From positions 66,679 to 130,678 of the IMG/VR virus record IMGVR_UViG_3300042305_002533: a DNA stretch of 64,000 bases, one strand, 5' to 3'. The notes under the pieces were generated by a model. That model did not search any database. It was not told the origin of the DNA and was given only the letters and a program-made list of their open reading frames with translations. A program made the translations under genes and the position numbers. Numbering within the stretch: position 1 is the first letter of the stretch; each line of letters opens with the position of its first letter. The DNA comes from a virus. Positions 580 through 15,028 of this stretch are shown here, piece after piece.

Positions 580-2527
580 GGTCCTCCTTCAGTACGTTGA
601 GATACGCGGTGTTTGCCACCGGCTTGGCTACTTCAGCACTGTACTTACAGCCTTTGCGGAAAGGCCGAATCTCGTCGCGGGCGCAGTCATTCATACGCTC
701 ACAAGACGCGCATGAAATCCGCTCCAGCATGGTGTACGCCACGTTATCCTTAAACGCGAGCGTTCTCGCCAAAAAGCCGTCCAGAGCCTGGGGGTGCGTG
801 GACAGCAAGCGGTAAACAACCATGTTGCGCGTCTGCCCTGGGCGGTTATTGCGCTCAAGCGACTGCTTGTAGTGCGTCAGGTTCCAGGTCAGCGCATAAT
901 AAATCATGTAATTTGCGGCCGTGAGCGTAACGCCAACGCCGGAGCTTACCTGTCCGATGTACACTCGGCAGATTGGGTCAGTTTGAAAGCGGCGGCTTAG
1001 CTCTTCAATCCGGCTGGTCGTTGATCCGTCTACGCGAACGTATTCATAACCTGCGTCTGAAACGGCCGTCTCGATGTCATTGAGCTCCTCAAGGTACGTC
1101 GCCCAGACGATGACCTTGTTCGCGTCGTCATCAGACAGCACATTGCCCAAGAGCTCTTTGAACGTCGCAAGCTTCGGGTTGGAAAGTCGTTTTATGGTCG
1201 TAGGAGGTTTTTCTTTGTAAATGTGACACCGCTCCGTGTACGGGCGCACCCCAGTTTTAACGCAGCCCTGCACGTGCTCGCAGCCGTCACAGACGAGCGG
1301 GTCGGCGCCCTCAATGACGAAGCCTGAAACTAACTGCAAGAGCTTATTGACAAGGGCACCGCCGTGCGGGGTAGAAACCCCGCGCCCGCGTAAAGCGTTG
1401 GACTCCGCGTACGCAGCAAAATCTTTGAGCCGCGCAATGCTGGCGTCATACTCCCGCGCTTGCGCCGAGGACAGGTCGAAGGGCACGTCAATGAACGTAA
1501 CGGGCGGGAGGTCAATACACTCCTTCTTTTTCATGCGCGTCGCGATGCCTTCGACGCGCGCGTTCAGTTCATCCAGGTCGCGGTAGCCGTAGACCTGATG
1601 CTTATTGAACTTGGAATACACAAAGTGCTTTTGTTGATACGCGTACCAGGGCATGGGCATAAGCGCCGGCGAAAGAAAGCGCATCTGTGCATAGAGCTTG
1701 CCCGGATGATCAGCCGCTGTTCCCGAGAGCAAGTAGCGGCGGCACGCCTTGGCTGATAGCGTCAGCGCCGCCTGCGTTTGGGAGCTCTCATAGTTCCCGA
1801 TGGAGTGAGACTCGTCAGAGACAATCACCTGGTAGTCCAGGTCTTTCAGGCGCTTGGGGTGTTTATTTTTTGGGTCGAACTCAAGCCGCGCGCGGGCGTA
1901 GGAGAGCACAACGACGTCGGCGGTCTGGGCCGCCTCGTAGCTTTTGTCCGTACCGTCCCAGATAACTGCGCGCAAAGCGCCCTGTGTGCAGCGGCGGACT
2001 TCGTTAACCCACGTAGGCAGCACTACCGGAGGCGCCATCACCAACATGCGCTTGAGCTCGGGATTTTCACGGCGTGAAAGCCGGAAGCCGTCGATCATCG
2101 TACGCGTTTTGCCGGTGCCCATCTCCCAGAGAAAGAACGAACGCCACCACGCGGCGATGCGGCGGATGCCCAGTCTCTGGTGACGGTAAGGCTCAAACCC
2201 CTTGGGGAATTCAAAATCTTCGGGTAACTCGACCTCTTCGTTCTGGGCGTACGCCGACTTGGCGGCCCCCCAGACGTTGTCGGTCGCGCGCAAGTCATTT
2301 ACGAAAGAAAGCGCAGAGGCCGTCCACTCGAGGTCAGGCGCTAAAACTTTCAGATCGTGCGCTACCGAAAGCCCGAAAGGATAGTATGCTGGAAAGAGCC
2401 AGTCGGCTCCTGACTGCACGGCGCCGGTTACACGCCGCCAGGGATCAGGAGACACGCTCGTCGGCGTGATGCGCCAAACGGGCGTAAGATTTAGATGAAG
2501 GCCACTAACTTTCACGCTGGGTGCCAT
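554..2527 (-). CDS. SNF2/SF2-family helicase-ATPase
   Basis: Motif I EMGTGKT, motif II DESH, LLSGT, RVDGST, GVGVTLTAA, QSLERNNRPGQ; start uncertain (ATG 2527 or GTG 2551). Confidence 0.9.
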   Translation of the reverse strand: MAPSVKVSGLHLNLTPVWRITPTSVSPDPWRRVTGAVQSGADWLFPAYYPFGLSVAHDLKVLAPDLEWTASALSFVNDLRATDNVWGAAKSAYAQNEEVELPEDFEFPKGFEPYRHQRLGIRRIAAWWRSFFLWEMGTGKTRTMIDGFRLSRRENPELKRMLVMAPPVVLPTWVNEVRRCTQGALRAVIWDGTDKSYEAAQTADVVVLSYARARLEFDPKNKHPKRLKDLDYQVIVSDESHSIGNYESSQTQAALTLSAKACRRYLLSGTAADHPGKLYAQMRFLSPALMPMPWYAYQQKHFVYSKFNKHQVYGYRDLDELNARVEGIATRMKKKECIDLPPVTFIDVPFDLSSAQAREYDASIARLKDFAAYAESNALRGRGVSTPHGGALVNKLLQLVSGFVIEGADPLVCDGCEHVQGCVKTGVRPYTERCHIYKEKPPTTIKRLSNPKLATFKELLGNVLSDDDANKVIVWATYLEELNDIETAVSDAGYEYVRVDGSTTSRIEELSRRFQTDPICRVYIGQVSSGVGVTLTAANYMIYYALTWNLTHYKQSLERNNRPGQTRNMVVYRLLSTHPQALDGFLARTLAFKDNVAYTMLERISCASCERMNDCARDEIRPFRKGCKYSAEVAKPVANTAYLNVLKEDHENNTDAR

Positions 2528-4241
2528 GAGTTCTTCTCCCTCCGTTGACACGTCAAACCTCGCCGATCCAGTCGCACTGAACGGCGCAAACCACCCGAAC
2601 CCGGCGTTTGATTACCTCACGGGGTTCGTACCAAGAAAGCTCAAGGACCTTTTCAAGTGGGCCGAATACCTCGCGTTCAACTCGGCGCACATCTACGGCG
2701 TCGTAAGAAAGTTCGGGGAGTACCCGATTACGTCGTTCGTCTATGACACGACGTCGCCGGACGAAAAGCAGCGGCATCAAGACCTGTTTGAAAAAAAGAC
2801 GCGGCTCAAGGGGTTTCTAACGCAGGTCTCGTTTGATAAGTGGATTTACGGCAACGCGTTCGTGAGCGTCTTTGAGCCTATCAAGCGCTGGCTCCGTTGC
2901 ACCAAGTGCCGCACAAAAGAAGACGTAAAAGTCGCGGATTACAAGTACGTCGACACTTCAACGGCGTTCAAACTGAAGTGCCGGAACTGCGGCTTTGAAG
3001 GCGTGGCCGAGGTCGAGGATGAGAAGCTGATCGACCCGTCGAAGATCAACCTGATCCGATGGGACCCGAAGCTCATCGACATTGACCACAACCCCGTAAC
3101 CGGACAGAGCGTCTACTACTACACGATTCCGCGAACGCTCGTGCAGCAGGTCAAAGAGGGCAATAAGCATCTGATCGGCACCATGCCGATGGAGATGCTC
3201 AAAGCCATGAAGGCCAAGAAGACCTTCAAATTTGCCGACGGTCAGATTTTTCACCTGAAAGTTCCAGGACCGGCGGGCGTGGAGTCGCAGTGGGGCTTCC
3301 CCCCGATCACCAGCGCCATCAAGCTCTTTTTGTTCGCCGCGATCCTTCGGCGCGCGAACGAGGCCATCGCGCTTGAGCACATCACGCCGTTTCGCGTAAT
3401 TCACCCGCAAACCGCGTCAGGCAACGGCGATCCGCTTCTACAGCTCAATCTCGAAGAGTGGCGGCGAGAGCTGGAGAAAAATTACAAGCAATTCCGCAAA
3501 GACCCTCTGCGTATGCAGTTTTCACCCGTGCCCATCGGCGTCCAAAACGTCGGCGGAGACGGCCGCGCAATGCTGACGCTCGGCGAGCTACAGGAAGCGG
3601 AGAAGAACATTGTCCTGTCCATGGGCGTGCCCATGGAGTTCCTGGCGGGCGGACTTGGGCAGATGCGCGGCGAGGTTACGCTGCGCATGTTGGAAAACCA
3701 GCTGCAAACGCACATCGAGGACCTGAACGGGCTGATCCAGTGGGTCGAAGGAAAGTGCGCACGCTTCTTGGGCTGGGCTTCAATCCCGATGCGCCTCGCG
3801 GAGTTCAAGCTGCTTGACGACGTTGAGAACAAGCAGATTTACTTCCAGCTCTGGCAGCAGGGTAAGATCAGCGATACAAAGATCGGTGAACTCTTCGGCA
3901 TCGACTGGGAGCACGAGCGCAAGCAGAAGATGGAAGATGTCTTGAGCGAAATGAAATCGCAGATGCAGCTTGAAGCTGCGCAGAAGAAGCTGCAGAACGC
4001 GCTCTCGCAACAGGCGGCAAACAAAGCACAGATGTCTCAAAACCCGGCGCAGTACGACCAGCAGGCAATTATCGCGCAGGCCGATCAGATCGCCCAAGAG
4101 TTCGCCCAAATGGACATCGGCACGCGCCGATCGCGCATGGACGCACTCAAGAACGAGGACCTCATCATGGCCTCGGTGGTGCGCGAGCGGCTTGAGCAGA
4201 TGCAGCAAGACCAGGCAGCAGCACAGCGGGCACAGGGATGA
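2526..4241 (+). CDS. phage portal protein with Zn-ribbon insertion
   Basis: 571 aa; YGNAFV, IFHLK..WGFPPI and MGVPMEFL resemble portal segments; CTKC..CRNC insert; coiled-coil C-terminus; context of head genes. Confidence 0.7.
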   Translation: MSSSPSVDTSNLADPVALNGANHPNPAFDYLTGFVPRKLKDLFKWAEYLAFNSAHIYGVVRKFGEYPITSFVYDTTSPDEKQRHQDLFEKKTRLKGFLTQVSFDKWIYGNAFVSVFEPIKRWLRCTKCRTKEDVKVADYKYVDTSTAFKLKCRNCGFEGVAEVEDEKLIDPSKINLIRWDPKLIDIDHNPVTGQSVYYYTIPRTLVQQVKEGNKHLIGTMPMEMLKAMKAKKTFKFADGQIFHLKVPGPAGVESQWGFPPITSAIKLFLFAAILRRANEAIALEHITPFRVIHPQTASGNGDPLLQLNLEEWRRELEKNYKQFRKDPLRMQFSPVPIGVQNVGGDGRAMLTLGELQEAEKNIVLSMGVPMEFLAGGLGQMRGEVTLRMLENQLQTHIEDLNGLIQWVEGKCARFLGWASIPMRLAEFKLLDDVENKQIYFQLWQQGKISDTKIGELFGIDWEHERKQKMEDVLSEMKSQMQLEAAQKKLQNALSQQAANKAQMSQNPAQYDQQAIIAQADQIAQEFAQMDIGTRRSRMDALKNEDLIMASVVRERLEQMQQDQAAAQRAQG

Positions 4242-4684
4242 GCGACGACTTCGGCAAATTTATCGATCAAGCGCAAACGGCAGACCGCGTCGAGAGCCGG
4301 TTTGCCGGGCTTGAATCTGAGCTAGAGGTTCACGCCGGGACCAAGAAGAAAGCCAAGTACACCTACGAGTGCCGGGTGTTCACGGTCTTTCGGCCTTGGC
4401 AGGAGTGTCATCGGTGCCAGAAAGCGTTTCGTCCAAAAAAGAACGCAGAAGGCCAGTGGGAAGACCCGGACCTGGAGATGCCGGAAGACGAAGACTACAT
4501 CTGCCCCCATAACGAGATGGCGGAGTACTCACAGCTCGTCAACAAGATTTCACGGGGTGAGGCGCGTCTGATTCGCCGCTCTTTGGAAACGCTGAAGACC
4601 GGCGTCGTGCAAGCGCTACTTGAATGGGGCGAGCCGAACTTCACGGACAAAAAAGAAGAGCCAGAGCCGTTTCCACGGCTCTGA
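4238..4684 (+). CDS. hypothetical protein
   Basis: 148 aa, ATGA overlap with portal stop, CHRC..CPH. Confidence 0.7.
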   Translation: MSDDFGKFIDQAQTADRVESRFAGLESELEVHAGTKKKAKYTYECRVFTVFRPWQECHRCQKAFRPKKNAEGQWEDPDLEMPEDEDYICPHNEMAEYSQLVNKISRGEARLIRRSLETLKTGVVQALLEWGEPNFTDKKEEPEPFPRL

Positions 4685-4988
4685 CTCTCCGGGCTCACTC
4701 GTTCGGGGTCACCCTACGAGCGAGCCGTCTCTGAATGGCGACGACACTCGCCTCCCAGGCGTTCTCCTGGGGGATGGCGTCGTCGGCGAAGAACTGAGAC
4801 CAGTTCTTTTCCCTTCTCTCCTTCCGCCATTCCTGGCGGTTGGCGTTCTTGTACGTGGCCGCCATCAGAGGATGACCACCAACCAGAGGACCGACGTAAT
4901 GCACATGAAAAACCTCGTTGTCCGTCACGGACACAATCGTCGCGTGACAATTTCTTTTACCAGCAACACCCACTAAAATTTCGAAGCC

Positions 4989-7900
4989 ATGACTCAGCTG
5001 ACGCCCGTACTCACCGACGCCGAAACGCTTCGCGGGAAGATTCACGAGAAGGTCACGGGCGCGCTTACCAACGTGTTCCCGATGGACCTCAAAGGGCGCA
5101 CGCTTGAGGTGAAGGACATCAAAGTCCATCACCGGGACTACTCGTCCGACGAGCAGAAGAAAGCCCTGCTGAGCGGCGACTCCCTGCAGACGCCGGTGAA
5201 GGGGACGTTGGTGCTCAAGGGCGCCGATGGGCGTGTGATCGACGAGGCGAAAAACTTTACCCTCGTCCACATCCCGTACATGACGCCACGGCACACCGTG
5301 ATCGCGGACGGCAACGAGTATCAGTTCGCAAATCAGATTCGCCGTAAGCCCGGCGTGTACACGCAGCGCGCCGAAAACGGAGAGCTCAAGACGATCTTCA
5401 ACACGGGTCGGGGCGATAACTTCAATCTCAGCTTCAACGAAGCCAAGGGCACGTTCTCGCTACAGTACGGAACGAGCAACATTCCGCTCTACGCAACCTT
5501 ACGGGGCTTGGGCGTAACGCACGACGAGATCTCCAAGCATCTCGGAGAAGGCGTCGCCAAGGCCAATCAAGTCGCGCACGAAAAGCACATTGATACGGCG
5601 ATCTCGAAGCTCTACCAGAAGCTCGAACACCCGGCCGTTTACGACCCGAAACTCCCGCACGTCGCCAAAGCCGAAGCGATCAAAAAGAAGTACAGCATCG
5701 CGTCGCTTGACCCGGACGTGACCGAGCACACGCTGGGGCAAGCGCACGACCGCGTAACCCCGACCGCGCTTCTTCACGCCGCGAAAAAGATGCTCGCCGT
5801 GCACAACGGCAAAATCCCGGTCGACGATACCGACTCGCTGACCTTCAAGACCTTCCACGCCGTCGATGACTTCCTGGCCGAGCGCATTCGTCTGACGGCG
5901 CGCACCTGGACGCCCAAAGCCAAGATGGCGTTCAGCGGCAAGAACAACATTCGTGAGGCGCTACGCCCCGCGCCCTTCTCGGATTCGATCCGCAAGTTCG
6001 TGACGACGTCGTCTTTGACGGCCGTGCCCAGCGGAATCAACCCGCTGGAGCTCATGGATCACGCCGTGAAAGTCACGTCGCTCGGAGAGGGCGGGATCAG
6101 CTCTGACCGTGCGATTCCTCTTGACGCCCGCATGACGCACGCGACGCACTTCGGGGCGCTTGATCCAATACGCACGCCTGAGTGTTTAACCGGCGACGCC
6201 GAAGTCTTTACCGCAACGGGCTGGAAGCGCGCTGACGCCCTTACAGAATCGGACGCCCTCGCTTGCCGGATCGACGGTCGCCTTGAGTTTCATAAACCCG
6301 AACGGCTGATTGCCGCGCACTATTCGGGCCCACTTCACGGCGTGAACACAGGGAAACTTGAGTACCTGGTCACTCCAAACCACCGCGTTTGGTGCGCTCC
6401 CGTAGACGCCGTGTACCCCCTTGATCAACCCCACGGAACTGGTTGGCGGTTTAGTCGCGCTGATGAAATTCACGCAAAACCTCGCGTATTTGATACTGGG
6501 CACGGCGCATTTATTGGAGCAGGGCCGGACACATTTCAACTGCCTGAAGTCGACGGCGCGCATAATGTGCGGAACGCCGGGCCTATCCCTATGCCGGATT
6601 GGGCAGCGTTCATGGGCTGGTACCTTTCCGAGGGCTCGATTGGTCGGCACGAAGGGCGCCTGACGCACGTCCTTATTTCCCAAGACCGCACGGCTAATCC
6701 CGACTGTTGTGATGCTATCGAAGCCCTACTTTCTAGGCTGCCGTTTGGCTGGAGGTATGACGCCGCTAGCCGGGCGTTCGCCATTAGCGGAAAACAGCTT
6801 GCGAGTTACTTAGAGCCTTTTGGTTTTTCCCAGGATAAGTACATTCCCGAGTCCTTCTTCAATACCTCTATTGAAGCCCGGGAAAATTTGCTTGAAGCCT
6901 TACTGTTGGGCGACGGGCGAATCAACAGCGTTCGGGCTACCGGCAAAAATTACAAACAGCAAGTGTTCTGCACTACGAGTGCCCGTCTTGCAGAAGGAGT
7001 TGAACGGTTAGCCATCTCTCTAGGAAAATCGCCTAGGACTCGTCGCTACTCAGATAAGCGAGAAGAGCGATATCTTGATACCTATGAAGTTCGCCTGCTC
7101 CGCGACCGGTATCGGCAAGCGGTTCCTAGAAAAGGCCACTACTACGTAAGGCTCCACGACGGGCTGGTGTATTGCGCCACCGTTCCGGGTGGGCTGATGT
7201 ACATCCGCTATGGCGCTGGGATTGGACACTGGTCCGGTAACTCAGGCCATGCCGGTGTAGACATCCGCGCAACCATCGCCGCGCACCGAGATGACCGGGG
7301 AAACTTCTACACGGCCATGAAGGACGTGAAGACCGGGAAACAGGTCTTCGTGCGAGCCGGCGACCTCGTCAAAAACGTCGTGGCGTTCCCCGGGCAAAAC
7401 CTCAAGGGGGGCGTCAAAGCGTTCGTCAACGGGAAGATTGAAGAAGTGCCGGGCTCACGGGTGACGCACGAGATGCTGCACCTGTCGCACCAGTACTCAC
7501 CGGCGACGAGCCTCATCCCGATGATTCACAACATCCAGGGCAACCGCGCGATCATGGGTTCCAAGATGGGAACTCAGGCGCTACCCCTGCTTGATCGGGA
7601 GACGCCCTACGTCCAGGTAAAGAGCCATCTGCCGGGCGAGGTGTCGTTTGAAAAGGTCTACGGGCATCTGACCGTGCCGACATCGCCGGTGCACGGGACG
7701 GTGGAGAAGATCCAGGACGGGTACATTTATATCCGGCCGCACGGGGAGAAGAAGGCCGAGGACCGCCCCGTCCTTGAGCAGCGGAAGCTCGGGCCGCACA
7801 CGTTCAACCTGGAGATGATGCGCCACCAGTTTGAAGACGCCCCTGGCAGGCTCACGACCCGGTCGGGCAACTGGGACTACGGACATCTCCCCGGCTACAC

Positions 7901-10900
7901 GGGGCCTGATGGCGACTCCCTCGACTTCTTCGTCGGCGACCACCCCGACGGGCACATCTTCTCGTTCGACAAGCAGCACAACGCCGACGGCAAGGGCTGG
8001 AAGACCACGGACACAAAGTTTGTGGTGGGCGTGACGCCCGAGCAGAAGGCGGAGTTCCGTCGCCGTCAGGCCGTGTACAACTCGGGGCCCGCACCCATGC
8101 GGCACGCGAACATCCGAGAGTTCAAGGACTGGAATCACCTTCAGCAGCACATCAACGAGCACTTCAAGAACGAGAAGGTCGCCGCTGCCAAGGACGACGG
8201 CCTCATCAAAGTCCCCTACGAAACGAACTTTCCGTTCCCCTCGAAGACCTACCTGCATCACGACATTCAGGTAAAGCCGGGACAGACGGTTCAGCAGGGG
8301 CAGCGCCTTGGCGACTCGAACTTCACGCGCAACGGCACGCTCGCGCTCGGGAAGAACCTGCTCGTCGGATACATGGCCTATCACGGCTTGAACTCCAACG
8401 ACGCCGTCGTCATCAGCGAAAGCTGCTCCAAAAAGCTCACCAGCGAGCACATGTACCGCGAGATCTACCCACTCTCGTCACAAATCGAGCTCTCGCGCGA
8501 CAAGCACAAATCCTATTACGGCACCAAGTTCACGCCGCAGCAGTACGCGAAGCTTGATGCTTCCGGCGTGATCAAGCCCGGTACGCGTGTTGACCCAAAA
8601 GACCCGCTCGTACTCGGGCTGACGCGCGCTCAGATTCAAGGGCAAGACCTTCTCCTTGGGCGCATCTCGAAGTCGCTGACCAAGCCCTACAAAGACGTCG
8701 TGCTTCAATGGGAGCACGGCACGCCCGGCGTGGTCGTTGAAGTCCTCCGAAGCTCGGGGCAGATCGCGATTCTGATCAAGACCCAGGAGCAGATGCAAGT
8801 CGGCGACAAGCTGGCCGGGCGTTACGGGAACAAGGGCGTCGTCGCGAAGATCGTCGCTGATCACGAAATGATTAAGGACGAGAAAGGCCGCCCGCTCGAT
8901 CTCATCCTGACGTCCGCTGGCGTCGTAAGCCGCATCAATCCCGCACAGGTCATCGAAACCGCCGTCGGCAAAGTCGTCGAGAAGACGGGCAAGCCCATTC
9001 TCTACGACAACCAGGAGCACAAGGACGCCGTTCAGTGGGCCAAGGGGCTTTTGAAAGAGCACGGCATCAAAGACAAAGAGCACGTCTTTGACCCTGTGAC
9101 CAAACGGACGATCGTCGGGCCTGACGGCAAGGGCGTACTCGTCGGGCGGCAGTTCATCTACAAGCTCTTCAAGAGTACGGACACAAACTTCTCAGGCCAC
9201 GGCGTCGGCCCGTACGACGTAAACGAACAGCCCCTGAAGACTGGCGGGGACGAGAGCGCCAAGGGCATCGGCAAGATGGAGTTCGACGCCATCGTGGCCC
9301 ACAACGCCCGTAACTTTCTGCAGGAGGCCGCGTCAATCAAAAGCCAGAAGAACGATGAGTTCTGGCGTGCGATCCAGCTCGGGATGCCGCTGCCGACCCC
9401 AAAGCCTTCGTTCGCCTTCAACAAGTTCACCGCCATGCTTGAAGGCGCGGGGATCAAAGTCGACAAGCGGGGGTCGAAGTTCAAGCTCTTGCCGCTGACC
9501 GACAAAGACATCACACAGCGCAGCAAAGGCGCGATCACCGAAAAGGAAACGCTGATCGCCAAGAACCTGAAGCCGATTAAGGACGGACTCTTTGACCCGC
9601 TGAAGACAGGCGGGCCTCAAGGCACGCTGTACTCTCACATCGACCTCCATGAGCCGATCCCGAACCCGGTATTCACCGAGCCGGTGCGGCGCCTTCTCGG
9701 GCTGTCCACAAAAGACTTCGAGCAGCGGCTACACGACCATGGCGGCGCGTGGTTTCACAAAGAGCTTCAAAAGATCGACGTTGACACGAAACTCAACGAG
9801 CTCACCAAGGCGATGAACAAAGCGGCGGGCCCTGAGCTCGACAACCTCGTCAAGCAGGTGAAGTACCTCCGCGCCCTGAAGAGCGAAAACCTGAAGCCCC
9901 ACGAAGCTTACATCCTGTCCAAGGTGCCGGTGATTCCGCCGGTCTTTCGCCCGGTGCTGCCCGAAATGCGCGACCCGTCCAAGCTGATGGTTGCGGACGC
10001 CAACAAGCTTTACGGGCACCTTCTCGACACGAACAATACGCTCAAGACCACTGCCCTTGAGAGCGATCGCGGCAAGCACCGCGCCCTTGTCTTTAAGTCT
10101 GTCGGGGCGGTCTTCGGCATGAATGACCCCGAGGACGAGAAGCTGCAGAAGCAGGAAGTGAAAGGCTTCCTACAGAATATTGCAGGCGTGGGCTCCCCGA
10201 AGGGCGGCTTCTTTCAGCGCAGGCTCATGCGCCGAACGCAAGACGTATCAGGACGTGGAACGGCCGTGCCGGACGGAAACCTCGGCATGGATGAAGTGGG
10301 CATTCCGGAGCAGATGCTCTGGCAGATGCTCGACAAACTCATCGTGGCGCGCCTGGTCCGGCAGGGATACTCAGCCCTGCAGGCGCGCGAACTTGTCGAC
10401 AAAAAAGCGCCCGTCGCCCGCGAAGCTATGCTGGCTGAAAGTCGTGAGCGTCCCGTACTGATCAACCGCGCGCCGACGCTTCACCGCTGGTCGGTTGTGG
10501 CCGCGTATCCAAAGCCGGTGCAGGGCAAGACGATCCGCGTCAACCCCTTCGTCGAGAAGGGCATGAACCTCGACTACGACGGCGACACCCTTCAGGTGCA
10601 CGCGCCCGTTCAACCGGGGGCCGTCGAAGACGCAAAGAAGATGACGCTCAGCCAGATGCTCCTGGCGGACCAACAGCGTAACAAGCTCATGGCCTTCCCA
10701 CAGCACGAGGCCATCATCGGCTTTACGCTGGCGTCAAAGGCCACACCTACGGGACCGGCGCACCGATTCAAGACGCGCGACGAAGCCATGGCCGCGTGGC
10801 GTTCCGGCAAACTCAAGCTCACGGATGGCGTCATCATCGAGCACGAAAAGAAAGCGGGAGCCGACGATTTTAGCGAGCCTTTAGACGGCACGCCGATGAC

Positions 10901-10967
10901 GTCTGACGACGCGCTATGCTATTACCCAGCGGAGAGTGTGACGGGCTATGAACCGCAAGCTAGCTGA
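4989..10967 (+). CDS. rpoBC: phage DNA-directed RNA polymerase, fused beta plus beta' N-terminal half, with intein and pyrophosphatase-like insertion
   Basis: Beta motifs NQIRRKPG, TPE, NRAIMGSKMGTQALPL, GDKLAGRYGNKGVV; beta' motifs PVIPPVFRP, NRAPTLH and catalytic NLDYDGD (NADFDGD equivalent). Confidence 0.93.
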   Translation: MTQLTPVLTDAETLRGKIHEKVTGALTNVFPMDLKGRTLEVKDIKVHHRDYSSDEQKKALLSGDSLQTPVKGTLVLKGADGRVIDEAKNFTLVHIPYMTPRHTVIADGNEYQFANQIRRKPGVYTQRAENGELKTIFNTGRGDNFNLSFNEAKGTFSLQYGTSNIPLYATLRGLGVTHDEISKHLGEGVAKANQVAHEKHIDTAISKLYQKLEHPAVYDPKLPHVAKAEAIKKKYSIASLDPDVTEHTLGQAHDRVTPTALLHAAKKMLAVHNGKIPVDDTDSLTFKTFHAVDDFLAERIRLTARTWTPKAKMAFSGKNNIREALRPAPFSDSIRKFVTTSSLTAVPSGINPLELMDHAVKVTSLGEGGISSDRAIPLDARMTHATHFGALDPIRTPECLTGDAEVFTATGWKRADALTESDALACRIDGRLEFHKPERLIAAHYSGPLHGVNTGKLEYLVTPNHRVWCAPVDAVYPLDQPHGTGWRFSRADEIHAKPRVFDTGHGAFIGAGPDTFQLPEVDGAHNVRNAGPIPMPDWAAFMGWYLSEGSIGRHEGRLTHVLISQDRTANPDCCDAIEALLSRLPFGWRYDAASRAFAISGKQLASYLEPFGFSQDKYIPESFFNTSIEARENLLEALLLGDGRINSVRATGKNYKQQVFCTTSARLAEGVERLAISLGKSPRTRRYSDKREERYLDTYEVRLLRDRYRQAVPRKGHYYVRLHDGLVYCATVPGGLMYIRYGAGIGHWSGNSGHAGVDIRATIAAHRDDRGNFYTAMKDVKTGKQVFVRAGDLVKNVVAFPGQNLKGGVKAFVNGKIEEVPGSRVTHEMLHLSHQYSPATSLIPMIHNIQGNRAIMGSKMGTQALPLLDRETPYVQVKSHLPGEVSFEKVYGHLTVPTSPVHGTVEKIQDGYIYIRPHGEKKAEDRPVLEQRKLGPHTFNLEMMRHQFEDAPGRLTTRSGNWDYGHLPGYTGPDGDSLDFFVGDHPDGHIFSFDKQHNADGKGWKTTDTKFVVGVTPEQKAEFRRRQAVYNSGPAPMRHANIREFKDWNHLQQHINEHFKNEKVAAAKDDGLIKVPYETNFPFPSKTYLHHDIQVKPGQTVQQGQRLGDSNFTRNGTLALGKNLLVGYMAYHGLNSNDAVVISESCSKKLTSEHMYREIYPLSSQIELSRDKHKSYYGTKFTPQQYAKLDASGVIKPGTRVDPKDPLVLGLTRAQIQGQDLLLGRISKSLTKPYKDVVLQWEHGTPGVVVEVLRSSGQIAILIKTQEQMQVGDKLAGRYGNKGVVAKIVADHEMIKDEKGRPLDLILTSAGVVSRINPAQVIETAVGKVVEKTGKPILYDNQEHKDAVQWAKGLLKEHGIKDKEHVFDPVTKRTIVGPDGKGVLVGRQFIYKLFKSTDTNFSGHGVGPYDVNEQPLKTGGDESAKGIGKMEFDAIVAHNARNFLQEAASIKSQKNDEFWRAIQLGMPLPTPKPSFAFNKFTAMLEGAGIKVDKRGSKFKLLPLTDKDITQRSKGAITEKETLIAKNLKPIKDGLFDPLKTGGPQGTLYSHIDLHEPIPNPVFTEPVRRLLGLSTKDFEQRLHDHGGAWFHKELQKIDVDTKLNELTKAMNKAAGPELDNLVKQVKYLRALKSENLKPHEAYILSKVPVIPPVFRPVLPEMRDPSKLMVADANKLYGHLLDTNNTLKTTALESDRGKHRALVFKSVGAVFGMNDPEDEKLQKQEVKGFLQNIAGVGSPKGGFFQRRLMRRTQDVSGRGTAVPDGNLGMDEVGIPEQMLWQMLDKLIVARLVRQGYSALQARELVDKKAPVAREAMLAESRERPVLINRAPTLHRWSVVAAYPKPVQGKTIRVNPFVEKGMNLDYDGDTLQVHAPVQPGAVEDAKKMTLSQMLLADQQRNKLMAFPQHEAIIGFTLASKATPTGPAHRFKTRDEAMAAWRSGKLKLTDGVIIEHEKKAGADDFSEPLDGTPMTSDDALCYYPAESVTGYEPQAS
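6183..7241 (+). mobile_element. intein with LAGLIDADG homing endonuclease in RNAP beta
   Basis: TPE|CLTGDAEV start, VTPNH block B, FMGWYLSEG and LLEALLLGDG helices, ends VYCATV..WSGN|S; 353 aa. Confidence 0.9.
7758..8183 (+). other. inorganic pyrophosphatase-like (InPase) domain inserted in RNAP beta
   Basis: DYGHLPGYTGPDGDSLDFFVG matches the family I PPase YG..DGDPLD motif; flanked by KKA and KVA; paralogue in 51271..52539. Confidence 0.75.
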
Positions 10968-11559
10968 CATGTTGAGCGGGGGCCTGACTTCGACGTCGAT
11001 CAAGCGCCCAGGCGAGCCAATGATTCACGCCGTGAAAACGGAAGGCCCGCTCGGTAACCTGTTGAAGTCGATGGTCCCCGGGCCCTCGATGCACGTGATG
11101 CTCCGCGACATGGTGCCGTCGGCGATGAGCGGCGATGATTGCGGCTGCGACAACGTAGAAATCTTGAAGAAGCTGTCGTCCAAGAAGTACCAGCTGATCC
11201 TCGCGTACATTCATTACGGAGATCAACTACGGGCGCTCTACCGGGACGGCATCTACGAGCACTTTCAGGAGCACCTGGAAGAGGAGCGCGCCCAGCTCTA
11301 TCAGATCAACAAGAAGGTCACCGCCCTGGGGCATGACGCACCTTGTTGTCCGGGCGAAGTGCCGCCGGTGCCGCTCAACGACGCCAAGGCGATTTTTCGT
11401 GTCGCCCTGAAGATCGAAGAAGAATCGGTGCAACTCTGGTCCGATCTTTTCCGTCAAACCGACGACGACGTCGCCCTCAACGGCATGGCCCAGACGTATG
11501 CCCAGGAGTGCCAGGGGCACGCAGACGATCTGAAGCGCTATCTGCGGAGCTGTGAATGA
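10948..11559 (+). CDS. ferritin-like (bacterioferritin/Dps superfamily) protein
   Basis: EHFQEHLEEE, ALKIEEE and QECQGHADDL helices of a ferritin four-helix bundle in the C-terminal ~140 aa. Confidence 0.7.
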   Translation: MNRKLADMLSGGLTSTSIKRPGEPMIHAVKTEGPLGNLLKSMVPGPSMHVMLRDMVPSAMSGDDCGCDNVEILKKLSSKKYQLILAYIHYGDQLRALYRDGIYEHFQEHLEEERAQLYQINKKVTALGHDAPCCPGEVPPVPLNDAKAIFRVALKIEEESVQLWSDLFRQTDDDVALNGMAQTYAQECQGHADDLKRYLRSCE

Positions 11560-11933
11560 GTCACGTTAGCGGCCACGAGACACCTCAAGTAAAACGAGAG
11601 CGCGGGTTCTACCGGGACCCCGATCCCCGTTTCAAAGACTTCAAGGGGAAGTTTGAGGACGCATCTCGGAGCAATGGCGAACGGCAGATCAAAGAGGCGG
11701 CGATTCGACACGTGCTTGCCAAGTTCGCGCTACTCGACGAGGCCGGGAACCCCATCGACGGCCTCACCGAAATTATCCGGGGCGACGACTTCGGCTATAC
11801 TAAGCGCCGCGCTGGACGGCCGGCCCGGATGAGTGATGAAAAACCTGTCTGGGGGCCGCCATCCGGACTCGGTGCAGGTTGGACGGCGGATCAACTAGGC
11901 TGGAACCAGGGCGTGTCGTACGGAGGTGTGTAA
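11556..11933 (+). CDS. putative virion internal protein
   Basis: ATGA overlap; carries KEAAIRHVLAKFAL tag-like motif. Confidence 0.6.
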   Translation: MSHVSGHETPQVKRERGFYRDPDPRFKDFKGKFEDASRSNGERQIKEAAIRHVLAKFALLDEAGNPIDGLTEIIRGDDFGYTKRRAGRPARMSDEKPVWGPPSGLGAGWTADQLGWNQGVSYGGV

Positions 11934-13213
11934 TGTCTGATGGGACTAACGTGGCTGACGCCGCGAAGAAGATCGACTTTAAGAAAATCTACGAAGGCGC
12001 AAAAGACCTCGGGCTCAAGGGCTACGAAGGCGCAAAAGACCTCGGGCTCAAGGGCTACGAAGGAGCGCGAAAATATCTCCTTGATCCTGCTTACGAGGGC
12101 GCAAAAGGCTTCGTTACAAGCCCGACGGCGGCTGTTAGCCAGCTGGGCACAGATCTATCAACCCTCGCCCCAACGGCCGCCCGTGCGCTGGGGACTGTCG
12201 CCGTACCGATTGCCGGTTACGAAGTTGGCAAACGTATCGTTGGTGGACGAAAGCACGATCACGACGACCATCACGGAATGGTCGTCATGGCTTCCGAAAA
12301 AGTAGCTGAAATTCAGCAGGCGGCACAGTACGCCGTGCTGGCGCATTACAAACTGGCTTTCAGCCCTATCCAGGCCGGCGGCCAGGCCTTGAAGACCTTC
12401 GGCGGCGCAGTTCGCCAAGGGTTTGGGGCGTTGCGCGGTGAAGGCGGGTCTCTGGCAAACGCCGGGAAAGCTTTCATGCAGGCGGGCGGCGGGAATGCCG
12501 CTGCAAATATTGGGGCGGGGAGCGCCGCAGCCCTAGGCACCACCTATCTTGCCGGCCGGGGGCTAGGGGCGGGCTTGCGTAGCGGGCAGCAAAAGAACGG
12601 GTTTGCAATCACCCCCTCGGGGCATGCGCTCGACGCCGCCCGAGCACGGAACGCCATGCAGAGCCGCCAAGAGATGCAAGACATCGACAAGGCGTACGCC
12701 GAAAAAAACCCGATCATTGGGGCTATATCTTACAACCCTATTTCGCGCGCGTATGATGCCGCACGCCTGCGGATGCTGCAGGACACGGCGGGTAAGCATG
12801 AACGCGGAGAAAACGCGTACAACCCGCTCGGGGGGCTGCTAACGCCCCTTGAAGCAACGCCAAAGACGGCGTTTGTGCTGCCCGCACTTGCCGCGCTTAA
12901 AGGGGCATACGTTGCTAAACATTTGGGCCCCACGATCACCGATGCGGGCCATGAGTATGAGTCTGCGCTGGCTCGTAAAAACATGCGAGATCTGGAGCGC
13001 GAGGAGGCGGCCTTGTCTGCCTATGACACCGCCAACCCAAAGGCGGGCCGCACTATACAAGAGCGCGAAGACGCAGGCCGCCTAATGGAACTGCGCGCCC
13101 GAGGTCTTTCGCACATAGCGAGGCAGCACGATCAGGGGCGGCTCGCCATAAATCCCTTCGGGGGACGTCTCACTCCGAGCGAACTAGCAGAAAAAGCTCT
13201 GCAACCACGCTAA
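11933..13213 (+). CDS. putative modular virion internal protein
   Basis: Start at ATG 11933 after GGAGG; AAQYAVLAHYKLA motif, Gly/Ala hydrophobic segments, duplicated C-terminal module. Confidence 0.7.
   Translation: MSDGTNVADAAKKIDFKKIYEGAKDLGLKGYEGAKDLGLKGYEGARKYLLDPAYEGAKGFVTSPTAAVSQLGTDLSTLAPTAARALGTVAVPIAGYEVGKRIVGGRKHDHDDHHGMVVMASEKVAEIQQAAQYAVLAHYKLAFSPIQAGGQALKTFGGAVRQGFGALRGEGGSLANAGKAFMQAGGGNAAANIGAGSAAALGTTYLAGRGLGAGLRSGQQKNGFAITPSGHALDAARARNAMQSRQEMQDIDKAYAEKNPIIGAISYNPISRAYDAARLRMLQDTAGKHERGENAYNPLGGLLTPLEATPKTAFVLPALAALKGAYVAKHLGPTITDAGHEYESALARKNMRDLEREEAALSAYDTANPKAGRTIQEREDAGRLMELRARGLSHIARQHDQGRLAINPFGGRLTPSELAEKALQPR
11989..12063 (+). repeat. 33-bp tandem repeat (YEGAKDLGLKG), about 2.3 copies
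   Basis: ctacgaaggcgcaaaagacctcgggctcaaggg repeated. Confidence 0.85.
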
Positions 13214-13222
13214 ACTAGGCGC

Positions 13223-15028
13223 ATGCCTACGCCCATCTCCGTTGGTCACTTCTTGATCAACGACGTCTTGCCCGAGACCCACAAAATCACCGGGCCGGTC
13301 ACGAACAAAAACGTGCACGATCACGTCGTCGGTCTGGCCAAAGCTAACCCCGCCGAGTACGTGAACGTCATCACGGCGCTTAAGCGGCGAGGCGACGAAA
13401 TTGCCACACTTGAAGGTGTGAGCGTCGGCCTTGACGACATCGCACCCGATTACAAAGCACGCGACGCGATCTTGAAACCCGCGATTGCGAAGATTGAAAA
13501 AGCCAAGACCGAGAGCGAGCGGGAAAAGCTCGTCATCGAGGCGCAGAACGCGCTACTGGAGTACACAAAAAAGCACCCCGGCTCGATGACGCATATGGCA
13601 CTTTCCGGAGCGCGCGGAAACCCCGCACAGCTCATGAAGATCGTCGCGACGCCGCTGGCGGCGGTGCACCCGAAGCACGGTATCGAGCGGATACCCATCA
13701 AGCGGAGCTACTCCGAAGGGTTGACCGCCGCCGAGTACTGGTCGACCGTGCCTGAGGTTCGCGCCAATAACGTCGCTACCGTGGTGTCGGTCTCCGAGCC
13801 CGGAGAAGTCGCCAAAGTCCTCGTCAACAACATGATCGGGACGACTGTCACGCGGCCGGATTGCGGAACAAAAAACGGCGTGCACATGCGCCTCGACGAC
13901 GGCCACATTCTGGACCGGTACGCACAAGCCAGTCACGGAGTAGCCCGCAACACCTTGATTACCCCCCGGCTCGTACAGGAGCTTAAAAGCAAAAACATCC
14001 AAGAGCTCCTCGTGCGCTCACCGATGACGTGCGCCGCTTCGCATGGCGTCTGCCAGCATTGCCAAGGGCACAGCGAAAAGGGGCAGCTTCACGGGATTGG
14101 CGCTCCGGTGGGCGTGCGTGCCGCACAGGCCCTGGCGGAGCCTTTGACACAGATGGCGCTCTCCTCGAAGCACGCCGTACTAACAATCAAAGAAAAAAAG
14201 TTGGAGCCTACGGGCCTCAAAGGTTTCCGCCAATACCTTGAAATTCCAAAAGCGTTCAAATACGAAGCGGTACTCGCCCCGCAAGCCGGGCTTGTAACAA
14301 AAATTGAGAAGGCGCCGCAAGGCGGGCACTATGTTGTCGTTGGTGCTGAAAAGCTTTACGTCCGCCCAGAACTCAGCGTTACCGCGCACGTCGGGATGCA
14401 CGTAGAGCACGGAGACGCTTTGACCAACGGTGTGCCTAATCCGCAAAAAATCGTCGCCGCAAAAGGCCTCGGGGCGGGCCGCGCATATTACGTCGGGGCC
14501 ATTCACCGGGTCTACCAAGGCGAAGGCATAAACTTGGATAGGCGTCACCTGGAGCTCTTGGCCAAGAGCGAGATGAACCACGTCCGCCTTCTAGACGCCG
14601 ACCCAGAACACCCCGAGTTTCTCAAAGGCGACGTCATTAACTACAACGCCTTCCGAGAAGCGTACTCCAAAGACGTCACACACATGCCGCTCTCCGAAGC
14701 TATAGGAAAGCGGCTGGGGCAAGAGATACTACACCACACGGTCGGAACCCCAATAACGCCGGCTCTTGTAAACGAGCTGAAAAGCAAAGGCGTTCGCGAG
14801 GTCCTTGTAAACAAGCGGCTCCCTCCGGTAGAATTTGTGATGAAACCATTCACCATGAACCCGCTACACGAAAGTGATTGGATGGCGCGGCTGGCGCACC
14901 GGTACCTCAAGGGGTCCATTCAGCAGGCGGCGCAATTTGGAGAAACGTCCGACATTCATGGCGCCCACCCAATTCCGGCTTACGCTTACGGAGCCGAACT
15001 TCGCCACGGCCCGTCGGGCGGATACTGA
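13223..15028 (+). CDS. rpoC: phage RNA polymerase beta' C-terminal half
   Basis: SGARG, SYSEGLTAAEYW, DCGT, VRSPMTC..GVCQHCQG Zn site, trigger helix GVRAAQALAEPLTQ, RRHLELL. Confidence 0.92.
   Translation: MPTPISVGHFLINDVLPETHKITGPVTNKNVHDHVVGLAKANPAEYVNVITALKRRGDEIATLEGVSVGLDDIAPDYKARDAILKPAIAKIEKAKTESEREKLVIEAQNALLEYTKKHPGSMTHMALSGARGNPAQLMKIVATPLAAVHPKHGIERIPIKRSYSEGLTAAEYWSTVPEVRANNVATVVSVSEPGEVAKVLVNNMIGTTVTRPDCGTKNGVHMRLDDGHILDRYAQASHGVARNTLITPRLVQELKSKNIQELLVRSPMTCAASHGVCQHCQGHSEKGQLHGIGAPVGVRAAQALAEPLTQMALSSKHAVLTIKEKKLEPTGLKGFRQYLEIPKAFKYEAVLAPQAGLVTKIEKAPQGGHYVVVGAEKLYVRPELSVTAHVGMHVEHGDALTNGVPNPQKIVAAKGLGAGRAYYVGAIHRVYQGEGINLDRRHLELLAKSEMNHVRLLDADPEHPEFLKGDVINYNAFREAYSKDVTHMPLSEAIGKRLGQEILHHTVGTPITPALVNELKSKGVREVLVNKRLPPVEFVMKPFTMNPLHESDWMARLAHRYLKGSIQQAAQFGETSDIHGAHPIPAYAYGAELRHGPSGGY

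What the first reader, a model, noticed from the sequence alone, without database searches (positions are those of the whole stretch)
4989..15028. Bacterial-like phage RNA polymerase with unusual architecture: beta fused to beta'-N, beta'-C separate
Seen: one 1992-aa ORF runs from beta motifs through beta' NLDYDGD, so both double-psi barrels are in one chain. The bridge helix and trigger loop are in a separate gene 2.3 kb downstream. The beta' N-terminal Zn finger is absent (KDGLFDPLKTGGPQGTLYSHIDL has no Cys). No alpha, omega or sigma gene is recognisable in the window. Known: phiKZ/AR9 enzymes split beta and beta' into four chains, and Helicobacter/Wolbachia fuse full beta-beta'. Inference: a compact two-chain enzyme, probably virion-packaged given its position among head genes and its KxA sites.
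Basis: partly seen in the sequence, partly recalled or inferred. Interest (0 to 1): 0.72.

Follow-up and report, generated by a model that had tools for sequence, protein, structure and literature searches.

The report
Fused-and-split phage RNA polymerase with intein
An uncultured lake-water phage makes its own bacterial-type RNA polymerase from two unusual chains (all of beta joined to the front half of beta-prime, the back half separate), interrupted by a self-splicing intein, a layout shared by a large phage group but hardly described in print.

Summary
ORF 4989-10967 (1992 aa) runs from beta motifs through the beta' NLDYDGD barrel. ORF 13223-15028 (601 aa) carries the bridge helix and trigger loop. 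The beta' N-terminal zinc ribbon is missing.

A pyrophosphatase-like module (about 7758-8183) also sits in a beta loop.

The layout is the rule in a lineage related to Salmonella phage Arash:
- The beta/beta' junction lies in one ORF in 79 of 79 assessable loci.
- 50 loci have the window's layout, 7 fuse everything into one chain of 2034-2405 aa, and 15 carry an extra split.

No alpha or omega gene was found. A sigma70-like gene lies about 1.5 kb upstream of the window. Five of five near-complete relatives have one polymerase set plus sigma.

Virion packaging rests on published Arash proteomics, not on K-x-A sites. K-x-A is not enriched in either chain, although it flanks the inserted module.

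This scan has found the same layout before on at least six other genomes. None of my searches found a paper that describes the fusion.

Verdict: real, and a new variant of a known kind.

The parts
4989..10967 (+). Gene for the beta-beta'N fusion precursor (1992 aa; about 1639 aa after intein removal)
   Evidence: ORF list; translation; Pfam Rpb2_2/3/6 plus Rpb1_1/2; alignment to Salmonella beta and beta'; homologous to Arash gp206 and D69.
6183..7241 (+). Intein with a LAGLIDADG homing-endonuclease core (residues 399-751: Cys first, Asn last, Ser at +1). It is inserted after the RTPE of the beta fork motif, equivalent to Salmonella beta E565.
   Evidence: Clean 353-aa insertion relative to Arash and D69. 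Six homologous inserts at this site keep C1, TPNH, two LAGLIDADG-like motifs and the final Asn. The model's best PDB matches are the TliVMA intein (7qss, E 1.3e-7), PI-TkoII and PI-SceI. An independent contig spans it without gaps.
7758..8183 (+). Inserted InPase-like (family I pyrophosphatase-like) module in a beta surface loop, flanked by K-x-A (KKA at residues 921-923, KVA at 1063-1065)
   Evidence: Absent from Arash and D69. Pfam PF18823 scores 29.4 bits (cut-off 26.8) on the excised stretch. The DYG...P...G.D...LD..VG columns are invariant in 6 of 6 sequences. Foldseek gives no hit at E<=0.001, but every row listed is a family I pyrophosphatase, E 0.02-0.18.
8802..8837 (+). Beta active-site motif GDKLAGRYGNKG (second barrel, two lysines)
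   Evidence: Aligned to Salmonella GDKMAGRHGNKG; invariant in A1.
9465..9578 (+). Covalent beta-to-beta' junction. Beta homology ends at residue 1492 (Salmonella beta 1338 of 1342), and beta' N-terminal homology follows within about 40 residues.
   Evidence: The junction lies in one ORF in 79 of 79 assessable loci. Contig X4 record 20 spans 9170-9898 with 0 gaps.
9579..9647 (+). Beta' N-terminal segment where the zinc ribbon is replaced by a short Cys-free loop
   Evidence: Sequence; no Cys in any of the three aligned phage proteins.
10566..10586 (+). Beta' catalytic loop NLDYDGD
   Evidence: Aligned to Salmonella NADFDGD 458-464; Pfam Rpb1_2.
13223..15028 (+). Gene for beta'C (601 aa): bridge helix (about 13727-13837), trigger loop without an SI3-type insert (about 14126-14257), four Cys of the second zinc site (C214, C270, C277, C280)
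   Evidence: Pfam Rpb1_4 and Rpb1_5. BLASTP to Salmonella beta' 721-936 and 1201-1283. NCBIfam rpoC positions 551-1069 of 1147; residues 45-52 align to positions 34-35 of the cyanobacterial rpoC2 models.
2526..4241 (+). Portal protein gene, conserved upstream neighbour of the polymerase gene
   Evidence: 32% identity, E 5e-103 to Arash gp204 portal; same order in Arash, D69 and D181.
10948..13213 (+). Variable spacer between the two polymerase genes: ferritin-like ORF 10948-11559, ORF 11556-11933, ORF 11879-13213
   Evidence: Pfam Ferritin 43.8 bits; no family for the other two ORFs. Contigs of runs X4 and X6 join 11923 to 13222 with 27 other letters, so they lack the 444-aa ORF. Spacer length in class A relatives is 633-5728 nt.

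Best explanation
The two genes encode the catalytic core of a phage-borne, bacterial-type multisubunit RNA polymerase. The phage belongs to the lineage that includes Salmonella phage Arash, probably the 'mReC' phages of Weinheimer and Aylward (2020).

Chain 1 is all of beta joined, with almost no linker, to the N-terminal half of beta' (clamp and catalytic barrel). Chain 2 is the C-terminal half of beta' (bridge helix, trigger loop, second zinc site). The beta' break falls just after the catalytic barrel, near the place where cyanobacterial beta' is split.

Before chain 1 can fold into an active enzyme, a 353-aa intein must splice out of the beta fork motif next to the active site. A pyrophosphatase-like module sits in a beta surface loop.

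The enzyme has no alpha or omega of its own. I infer that the covalent beta-beta' link takes over part of alpha's assembly role. A sigma70-like factor encoded 6.4 kb upstream of the gene probably gives promoter specificity.

By homology with Arash, the enzyme is probably packed into the head and injected to start early transcription. It is the only polymerase set in related complete genomes, so it probably transcribes later genes too.

Shown: the architecture, the intein anatomy, the lineage-wide conservation, and the absence of detectable alpha and omega. Inferred: splicing, sigma use, packaging in this phage, and independence from the host polymerase.
For: - Domain order and motif alignments.
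- The intein is a clean insertion with conserved splicing residues. Its fold matches solved inteins.
- The fused junction is present in 79 of 79 assessable loci. 50 loci have the window's layout, and 43 of these have a separate beta'C 633-5728 nt downstream.
- All 120 listed of 654 database relatives carry both PF00562 and PF00623.
- There is one PF00562 hit in each of 5 of 5 near-complete relatives. Sigma70_r2 is found in 5 of 5 at E<=0.01, and over the cut-off in 4 of 5. Alpha is found in 0 of 5.
- On the window's own contig: sigma 37.8 bits, no alpha, no omega.
- Arash virion proteomics: Gp206 3516 spectra, Gp216 1210, and a protein annotated as sigma (Gp10) 467 (PMC10585845, passages).
- The portal neighbour is conserved.
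- The phage clade is separate from 3 bacterial outgroups with 100% SH-aLRT.
Against: - Packaging is shown only for Arash, which is 35% identical. Its authors themselves note that abundant enzymes may contaminate virion preparations.
- No splicing, activity or sigma-binding data exist for any member.
- The window's contig is only 76% complete by CheckV, so a second polymerase set or an alpha-like gene could lie in the missing part. The absence of alpha and omega rests on Pfam models that might miss divergent forms.
- The sigma ORF shows regions 2-3 only; PF04545 (region 4) was not found.
- The Hint part of the intein model has low confidence (pLDDT under 50 for residues 39-113 and 308-338). The intein has Gly, not His, before its last Asn. 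Pfam and NCBIfam hits on it are below their cut-offs. phmmer against PDB found nothing relevant.
Confidence: 0.75

Rival explanations
1. The fused chain does not stay whole. The head maturation protease cuts at the K-x-A motifs that flank the inserted module. The packaged enzyme would then have a nicked beta (three or more chains), and a free pyrophosphatase-like domain would be released as head cargo. This reading is compatible with most of the best explanation.
For: - K-x-A is present at 12 of 12 InPase-module boundaries in the 6 sequences printed.
- Tandem modules in L005 and L039 (a P-loop module plus InPase) are each separated by the motif.
- A paralogous InPase module (35% identity, E 1e-21) begins with EKQA in another gene of this window, 51271-52539 (-).
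- K-x-A is enriched in several neighbouring head-block ORFs: z 4.4, 6.5 and 4.7.
Against: - No protease specificity is known for this lineage.
- K-x-A is not enriched over the whole chain (z -0.1).
- The modules are homologous, so the shared flanks may be inherited linker sequence rather than cleavage sites.
- Arash has no insert at this position, so its proteomics cannot speak to this.
Confidence: 0.25
2. The enzyme is made only after infection and is not packaged. Early transcription uses the host polymerase, perhaps redirected by the phage sigma.
For: - The Arash authors raise contamination by abundant proteins as an alternative.
- A phage sigma could in principle serve the host core.
- No RNA holder was available to time expression (reported only as tried).
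Against: - Gp206 is the protein most detected in Arash virions, above the major capsid protein (3516 against 1333 spectra).
- The gene sits directly after the portal gene in the window, Arash, D69 and D181.
Confidence: 0.15
3. The long ORF is an artefact: a mis-assembly, a missed stop or frameshift between beta and beta', or a decaying pseudogene.
For: None was found. The only indels listed lie in the beta'C gene: a +1 at 13953 and a -1 at 13958, in one contig of depth 2.6.
Against: - The fused ORF is intact in 79 of 79 assessable loci from many samples, and in cultured phages Arash and D69.
- Independent contigs cover the junction and the intein without gaps.
- Catalytic motifs are intact.
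Confidence: 0.02
4. It is a cellular rpoB-rpoC region on a bacterial contig, or a recent capture from the host.
For: None beyond the homology itself.
Against: - Identity to Salmonella beta and beta' is 26-29% in local alignments.
- The phage clade is separated from 3 bacteria by a long, fully supported branch.
- The contig carries portal and head genes.
- Only 1 relative was found in 185,579 species genomes, on a 4.9-kb contig of a metagenome bin.
Confidence: 0.01

Closest known systems
RNA polymerase genes of Salmonella phage Arash (gp206, 1525 aa; gp216, 606 aa; OQ632216; PMC10585845) and of Vibrio phages D69, D148 and D181
   Same: - Same beta-beta'N fusion plus separate beta'C.
- Same portal gene just upstream.
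- No beta' zinc ribbon.
- 35-37% identity over the exteins.
- Arash has sigma genes and a single polymerase set.
   Different: - Arash and D69 have no intein and no InPase-like insert.
- D181 carries a group I intron with a homing endonuclease in the gene instead.
- The Arash paper labels gp206 simply as 'subunit beta'. In the passages I read it does not mention the fusion.
mReC: multisubunit-RNAP-encoding Caudovirales (Weinheimer and Aylward 2020, PMC7481178)
   Same: - Metagenomic tailed phages, partly from IMG/VR, whose beta and beta' form a deep clade apart from cells.
- The polymerase genes are surrounded by phage hallmark genes (passages).
- My tree reproduces a separate phage clade.
   Different: - The main text has no occurrence of 'split' or 'intein', and uses 'fused' only for crAssphage.
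- Virion packaging and sigma are not discussed: 'virion' and 'sigma' each occur 0 times.
- Identity of their contigs with this lineage could not be checked, because supplements are closed.
phiKZ/AR9-type jumbo-phage RNA polymerases (reviewed in PMC7598289 and PMC7824862)
   Same: - Phage-encoded beta/beta' homologues without alpha or omega.
- A virion-packaged form exists.
- Beta' is split just after the catalytic barrel, at the cyanobacterial position (passages; for the window).
   Different: - Those enzymes split beta into 2-3 chains and never join beta to beta'.
- They come as two sets (virion and non-virion) and have no sigma.
- Here beta is whole and fused, there is one set, and sigma is present.
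Cellular rpoBC fusions (the NCBIfam beta/beta' equivalogs PRK09603 and PRK14844; the Helicobacter/Wolbachia attribution is recalled)
   Same: The C-terminus of beta is joined directly to the N-terminus of beta'.
   Different: - Cellular fusions keep full-length beta' in the same chain of about 2840-2890 residues (model lengths), and work with alpha and omega.
- The window's chain stops after the barrel.
- Only the 7 'class B' relatives are complete single chains, and they are much smaller: 2034-2405 aa as stop-to-stop frames, five of them 2034-2045 aa.
Inteins in the second-largest RNA polymerase subunit of eukaryotes and giant viruses (Goodwin et al. 2006, PMC1635734)
   Same: LAGLIDADG inteins inserted at the most conserved sites of the fork and hybrid-binding domains near the active site (passages). 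The window's intein sits in the fork motif.
   Different: - Those are in RPA2, RPB2, RPC2 and NCLDV genes.
- My searches found no report of inteins in a phage beta/beta' gene.
- Whether any site is allelic was not tested.

Membership tests
Bacterial-type multisubunit RNAP catalytic core (beta/beta' homologues) | Beta barrel with the GDK...GNKG lysine motif | tested here: met
   GDKLAGRYGNKG aligned to Salmonella GDKMAGRHGNKG; Pfam Rpb2_6, 143 bits.
Bacterial-type multisubunit RNAP catalytic core (beta/beta' homologues) | Beta' barrel with the three-Asp metal loop | tested here: met
   NLDYDGD on NADFDGD; Pfam Rpb1_2, 67.6 bits.
Bacterial-type multisubunit RNAP catalytic core (beta/beta' homologues) | Bridge helix and trigger loop | tested here: met
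   P0002 121-317 aligns to beta' 721-936; Rpb1_5; rpoC model positions 551-1069. The second trigger-loop arm was identified by eye only.
Bacterial-type multisubunit RNAP catalytic core (beta/beta' homologues) | Beta' N-terminal zinc ribbon (four Cys) | tested here: not met
   No Cys between the GLFD and SHIDL motifs in the window, Arash or D69.
Bacterial-type multisubunit RNAP catalytic core (beta/beta' homologues) | Alpha dimer and omega subunits | tested here: not met
   PF01000 and PF01192 were not found on the contig. PF01000 was found in 0 of 5 near-complete relatives. Divergent forms could be missed, and use of host subunits cannot be tested here.
Bacterial-type multisubunit RNAP catalytic core (beta/beta' homologues) | Sigma70-family initiation factor | tested here: inconclusive
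   A 273-aa ORF upstream of the window has Sigma70_r2 at 37.8 bits. Its RpoS/RpoD-like regions 2-3 score 72.6 bits, below the equivalog cut-off. No region 4 was found. Binding to this core was not tested.
Arash-like / mReC phage RNAP lineage | Clade separate from cellular beta and beta' | tested here: met
   58-row tree, phage clade at 100% SH-aLRT against only 3 bacterial outgroups, quick LG+G4 search.
Arash-like / mReC phage RNAP lineage | Covalent beta-to-beta' junction | tested here: met
   One ORF across the junction in 79 of 79 assessable loci, the window's relatives included.
Arash-like / mReC phage RNAP lineage | Polymerase gene next to the portal gene in the head block | tested here: met
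Arash-like / mReC phage RNAP lineage | Identity with the contigs named mReC in the 2020 paper | not testable with these tools
phiKZ/AR9-type split phage RNAPs | Beta split into two or three polypeptides | tested here: not met
   Beta is one piece, apart from the intein.
phiKZ/AR9-type split phage RNAPs | Two paralogous sets (virion and non-virion) and no sigma | tested here: not met
   One PF00562 hit in 5 of 5 near-complete relatives; sigma present.
LAGLIDADG intein | In-frame insert at a conserved host site, absent from homologues | tested here: met
   353 aa between RTPE and S, absent in Arash and D69.
LAGLIDADG intein | Splicing residues: Cys1, block B TxxH, terminal Asn, and Ser/Thr/Cys at +1 | tested here: met
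   C1, TPNH, N353 and +1 Ser are invariant in 6 of 6 sequences. The penultimate residue is Gly instead of the usual His (the usual residue is recalled).
LAGLIDADG intein | Hint fold plus endonuclease fold | tested here: inconclusive
   The endonuclease core is modelled at pLDDT 80-93, the Hint part below 50. Foldseek aligns the full length to the TliVMA intein 7qss at E 1.3e-7, TM 0.44. Pfam LAGLIDADG_3 scores 16.6 bits, below its 22.5 cut-off.
LAGLIDADG intein | Protein splicing demonstrated | not testable with these tools
   Needs expression or proteomics.
InPase / family I inorganic pyrophosphatase | Profile match above the curated cut-off | tested here: met
   PF18823 scores 29.4 bits against a 26.8 cut-off on the excised stretch. 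It scores 25.3 bits, below the cut-off, on the whole protein. Only profile positions 46-134 of 135 are matched.
InPase / family I inorganic pyrophosphatase | Pyrophosphatase fold and complete catalytic site | tested here: inconclusive
   Model pLDDT 66. No Foldseek hit at E<=0.001. All rows listed are family I pyrophosphatases, but with E 0.02-0.18 and TM 0.3-0.4. The N-terminal third of the profile is unmatched, so activity is open.

The most novel reading that the evidence does not exclude
The beta loop of this polymerase serves as a docking site for exchangeable 'cargo cassettes': pyrophosphatase-like and P-loop modules, each bounded by K-x-A. The head maturation protease cuts at these flanks. 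The virion would then hold a nicked, three-piece polymerase core plus free small enzymes, all injected with the DNA. The same cassette also rides in another head-block gene of this phage.
Probability: 0.2. Interest if true: 0.8.

Novelty: new variant of a known kind. Interest (0 to 1): 0.6.

Why it matters
This lineage offers the smallest natural bacterial-type polymerase cores known to me. Without intein and insert, the window's core is about 2100 residues in two chains. Some relatives have 2034-2045 residues in one chain. None has a detectable alpha or omega, yet all have a sigma-like factor.

That makes several old questions testable:
- How the two large subunits assemble without the alpha platform.
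- What the minimal sigma-dependent enzyme looks like.
- How fusions and splits of beta and beta' arise.

A cultured member, Arash on Salmonella, already exists for experiments.

The gene is also a hot spot for selfish elements. Across relatives it carries intein-sized in-frame inserts at three catalytic motifs (inteins confirmed at each site in at least one relative), a group I intron, and inserted modules. This is useful for studying intein homing in phages.

Annotation pipelines call the fusion 'beta subunit', so counts of phage beta' genes are distorted.

Tried and rejected
- Megablast of 4989-15028 against 50,697 phage records: no match.
- phmmer of the intein against PDB sequences: only chance-level rows, E >= 0.11.
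- Pfam and NCBIfam on the excised intein: only sub-threshold hits, namely LAGLIDADG_3 at 16.6 bits, intein parts of DnaB, GyrA and Tes models, and intein_Cterm at 11.4 bits.
- Foldseek of the InPase-like model: nothing at E<=0.001.
- Pfam on the L031 stretch 4091-5719, which should hold an insert at the second site: only Rpb2_6 and weak lipoyl-like hits, no intein family. That insert is therefore unconfirmed.
No signal, dropped.
- Rfam over the whole window: no family.
- Sigma ORF against the part of Arash gp196 that I held: E 0.005 over 43 residues, too weak to call orthology.
- No RNA holder was listed for the stretch, so expression could not be examined. All laid runs were contigs, so depth and ends say nothing.
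- I did not run complex prediction. The halves of a split gene would pass by likeness to solved structures.
- I did not run the search of protein representatives or the protein-atlas search. Family breadth was already clear.
- The rooting of the tree (class B first) rests on 3 distant bacteria and a quick LG+G4 search, and the tool warns that long branches meet. I treat the 'single chain first' scenario as a hypothesis only.
- Rows left out of the tree: 25 loci with under 90% of the query-anchored columns filled, and 3 duplicate rows.
None returned a paper that describes a beta-beta'N fusion in phages. Subscription papers and supplements were not visible.

Full report
**What is there.** The window is bases 66679-130678 of a 130,678-bp linear IMG/VR virus record, 76% complete by CheckV. 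ORF 4989-10967 (+) is a 1992-aa open frame, and ORF 13223-15028 (+) encodes 601 aa.

In the first ORF, Pfam finds the beta domains Rpb2_2, Rpb2_3 and Rpb2_6, followed by the beta' domains Rpb1_1 and Rpb1_2. In the second it finds Rpb1_4 and Rpb1_5.

Local alignments to Salmonella beta and beta' fix the map:
- P0001 261-398 aligns to beta 425-565.
- P0001 1095-1252 aligns to beta 771-931.
- P0001 1254-1492 aligns to beta 1047-1338, four residues from beta's end.
- P0001 1585-1954 aligns to beta' 181-557, with NLDYDGD on NADFDGD.
- P0002 121-317 aligns to beta' 721-936, which covers the bridge helix and the first trigger-loop arm. Cys214, 270, 277 and 280 fall on the second zinc site.
- P0002 391-475 aligns to beta' 1201-1283.

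The stretch that should hold the beta' N-terminal zinc ribbon has no Cys.

An alignment with the homologues of Salmonella phage Arash and Vibrio phage D69 shows two clean insertions.

The first insertion is residues 399-751 (window 6183-7241).
- It lies between RTPE and S of the beta fork motif. It starts with Cys, ends with Asn, and is followed by Ser.
- Five IMG/VR loci carry a full-length homologue at the same site. Cys1, TPNH, two LAGLIDADG-like motifs and the last Asn are invariant in 6 of 6 sequences.
- An AlphaFold model built from that shallow alignment is confident only in the endonuclease core: mean pLDDT 60, core 80-93.
- Its best PDB matches are nevertheless inteins: TliVMA 7qss at E 1.3e-7, PI-TkoII and PI-SceI.
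- Sequence-only searches are weak. Pfam LAGLIDADG_3 is below its cut-off, phmmer against PDB found nothing, and NCBIfam gave sub-threshold hits to the intein parts of intein-bearing models.

I conclude that it is a divergent LAGLIDADG intein. Splicing itself is inferred.

The second insertion is about residues 924-1065.
- It matches Pfam InPase above its cut-off when excised: 29.4 against 26.8 bits.
- It keeps a DYG...DGD.LD-type signature in 6 of 6 relatives.
- Its model finds only family I pyrophosphatases among the listed Foldseek rows, but none better than E 0.02.

Whether it is active remains open.

**How general the layout is.** tblastn against 50,697 phage records gives Arash, D69, D181 and D148 as the only close relatives (E about 1e-155). 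In these phages the same fused gene sits directly after the portal gene, and a separate beta'C gene lies downstream. The window's upstream ORF is 32% identical to the Arash portal, E 5e-103.

A scan of IMG/VR matched 307 stretches. Of these, 115 encode relatives, and 80 were kept. I classified those 80 plus Arash and D69 by tblastn with segments of the window's proteins and by stop-to-stop frames:
- The beta/beta' junction lies in one ORF in 79 of 79 assessable loci. Three loci end too early to tell.
- 50 loci have the window's layout, with a stop after beta'N. In 43 of these a separate beta'C lies on the contig, 633-5728 nt downstream.
- 10 loci run off the contig.
- 7 loci fuse everything in one frame of 2034-2405 aa (five of them 2034-2045 aa). 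Pfam confirms this for L038 and L045, which carry Rpb2_6, Rpb1_2 and Rpb1_5 in one ORF.
- 15 loci have an extra break about 85 residues into beta', so even their 'beta' ORF keeps the junction. This held in 13 of 13 tested.

The big protein database holds 654 relatives at E<=1e-10 among 8000 scored candidates. All 120 listed carry both PF00562 and PF00623. Only 1 relative turned up in 185,579 cellular species genomes, on a 4.9-kb contig of a metagenome bin.

Contigs of four lake-water runs cover the region. One spans the junction (9170-9898) and one spans the whole intein (4962-7755), both without gaps. No indel is listed inside the fused gene.

This scan has met the same layout on at least six other genomes, and the follow-up verdicts agree with mine.

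**Selfish elements.** Relatives carry in-frame inserts at two further sites:
- Inside the GDK.AGR.GNKG motif: 151-364 aa in 8 loci. One of these (L035) is placed about 50 residues further on by the script.
- Just after the NLDYDGD loop: 490-542 aa in 7 loci.

Pfam confirms LAGLIDADG_3 above its cut-off in 3 of 4 inserts tested, and Intein_splicing in 1. The L031 stretch gave no intein family.

In D181 the gene is interrupted by a full-length group I intron (RF00028, 100.7 bits) followed by a homing endonuclease gene. Inteins at fork and hybrid-binding sites of the second-largest subunit are known from eukaryotes and giant viruses (PMC1635734, passages).

**Partners.** Neither alpha (PF01000) nor omega (PF01192) is found on the contig. 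Alpha is also absent from 5 of 5 near-complete relatives.

A 273-aa ORF ending about 1.5 kb before the window has Sigma70_r2 at 37.8 bits and RpoS/RpoD-like regions 2-3. No region 4 was detected.

Each of the 5 near-complete relatives has exactly one Rpb2_6 hit. Each also has a sigma70_r2 hit, over the cut-off in 4 of the 5. This differs from phiKZ-type phages, which have two polymerase sets and no sigma (passages of PMC7598289 and PMC7824862).

P0002 residues 45-52 align to positions 34-35 of the cyanobacterial rpoC2 models. The beta' break is therefore close to the cyanobacterial one. The review reports the same position for phiKZ-type enzymes.

**Packaging and K-x-A.** In the Arash paper, Gp206 is the protein most detected in virions (3516 spectra), Gp216 has 1210, and a protein annotated as sigma (Gp10) has 467. 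The authors also mention carry-over of abundant proteins as an alternative (PMC10585845, passages). This is indirect but real support for packaging.

K-x-A occurs 12 times in the fused chain against 12.2 expected (z -0.1), and twice in beta'C against 4.2 expected (z -1.2). Several neighbouring head-block ORFs are enriched, with z up to 6.5; 19 ORFs were tested. The K-x-A at the beta/beta' junction is kept in 0 of 79 relatives.

One pattern does stand out. K-x-A sits at 12 of 12 boundaries of the InPase-like module in six sequences, and also between tandem modules in L005 and L039. A paralogous module (35% identity, E 1e-21) starts with EKQA in gene 51271-52539 (-) of this window. This keeps alive the idea that the module is a protease-released cassette. 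I rate that idea at about 0.2-0.25.

**Evolution.** I built a tree of 58 rows over 1958 query-anchored columns (quick LG+G4) with three bacterial outgroups:
- The phage clade has 100% support.
- The 7 single-chain forms are sister to all others (96 and 99%).
- The extra-split forms nest beside the Arash/D69 subclade (100%).
- The window's nearest relative is L007, at 78% identity.

The fewest-steps reading is fusion first, then a beta' split, then a further split. However, the root rests on long branches, and the tool itself warns about this.

**Literature.** The mReC paper describes a deep phage clade of beta and beta' genes but, in its main text, not the fusion, split, intein, sigma or packaging. 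The Arash paper calls gp206 'beta'. Eight searches found no description of the fusion. Supplements and subscription journals were not visible.

**Verdict.** The feature is real. It is a member of a known phage polymerase lineage, and the lineage's re-partitioned architecture appears undescribed. The window adds an intein and an inserted module.

Noticed in passing
window 11879-13213 (joint 11923 to 13222): The 444-aa ORF between the two polymerase genes is missing from contigs of two other lake-metagenome runs (X4, X6). Those contigs join 11923 to 13222 with 27 other letters, so the ORF is a strain-variable accessory gene with no family hit.
   Followed up: partly
window 25803-28841 (+): A 1012-aa ORF in the head block has weak Hint and LAGLIDADG hits at residues 182-355 (Hom_end_hint 22.5, Hint_2 21.9 and LAGLIDADG_3 21.3 bits, all below their cut-offs). 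It may be a second intein-bearing gene in the window.
   Followed up: no
window 51271-52539 (-): This gene contains a paralogue of the InPase-like module of the polymerase (35% identity over 139 aa, E 1e-21), with the same EK.A start. Pfam found nothing in the ORF at E<=0.001.
   Followed up: partly
window 15961-18123, 21434-22252, 28873-29418 (+): K-x-A is strongly over-represented in these head-block ORFs against shuffles: 19 against 8.1, 15 against 3.7, and 8 against 2.1. It is not over-represented in the polymerase, portal or tail-side ORFs tested.
   Followed up: partly
window 554-2551 (-): A SNF2-family helicase (SNF2-rel_dom 65.2 bits, Helicase_C) lies just upstream of the portal and polymerase block, as helicase genes do in Arash and D69. 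The jumbo-phage review links Swi2/Snf2 helicases with phage polymerase genes.
   Followed up: no
window 10948-11559 (+): A ferritin-like ORF (Pfam Ferritin 43.8 bits) overlaps the end of the fused polymerase gene by 20 nt.
   Followed up: no
L002 10518-11429 (Vibrio phage D181): The polymerase gene of D181 is annotated as two separate hypothetical proteins. It is in fact interrupted by a full-length group I intron (RF00028, 100.7 bits) that carries a homing endonuclease gene.
   Followed up: yes
L005 5637-7277 and L039 12146-13105: In some relatives the same beta loop holds two or three tandem modules (an unknown domain of about 190 aa, InPase-like, and a P-loop GHSG.GKST module), each separated by K-x-A. 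PF13238 is precomputed in 3 of the 120 listed relatives, by my count by eye.
   Followed up: partly
L087 11998-15381 (Rhizobium phage RHph_Y65): Kleczkowskaviridae phages carry a separate 1127-aa beta'-like gene next to DNA polymerase genes. It is 24% identical to the window's beta'N part, starting exactly at the junction. Where their beta is encoded was not looked up.
   Followed up: no
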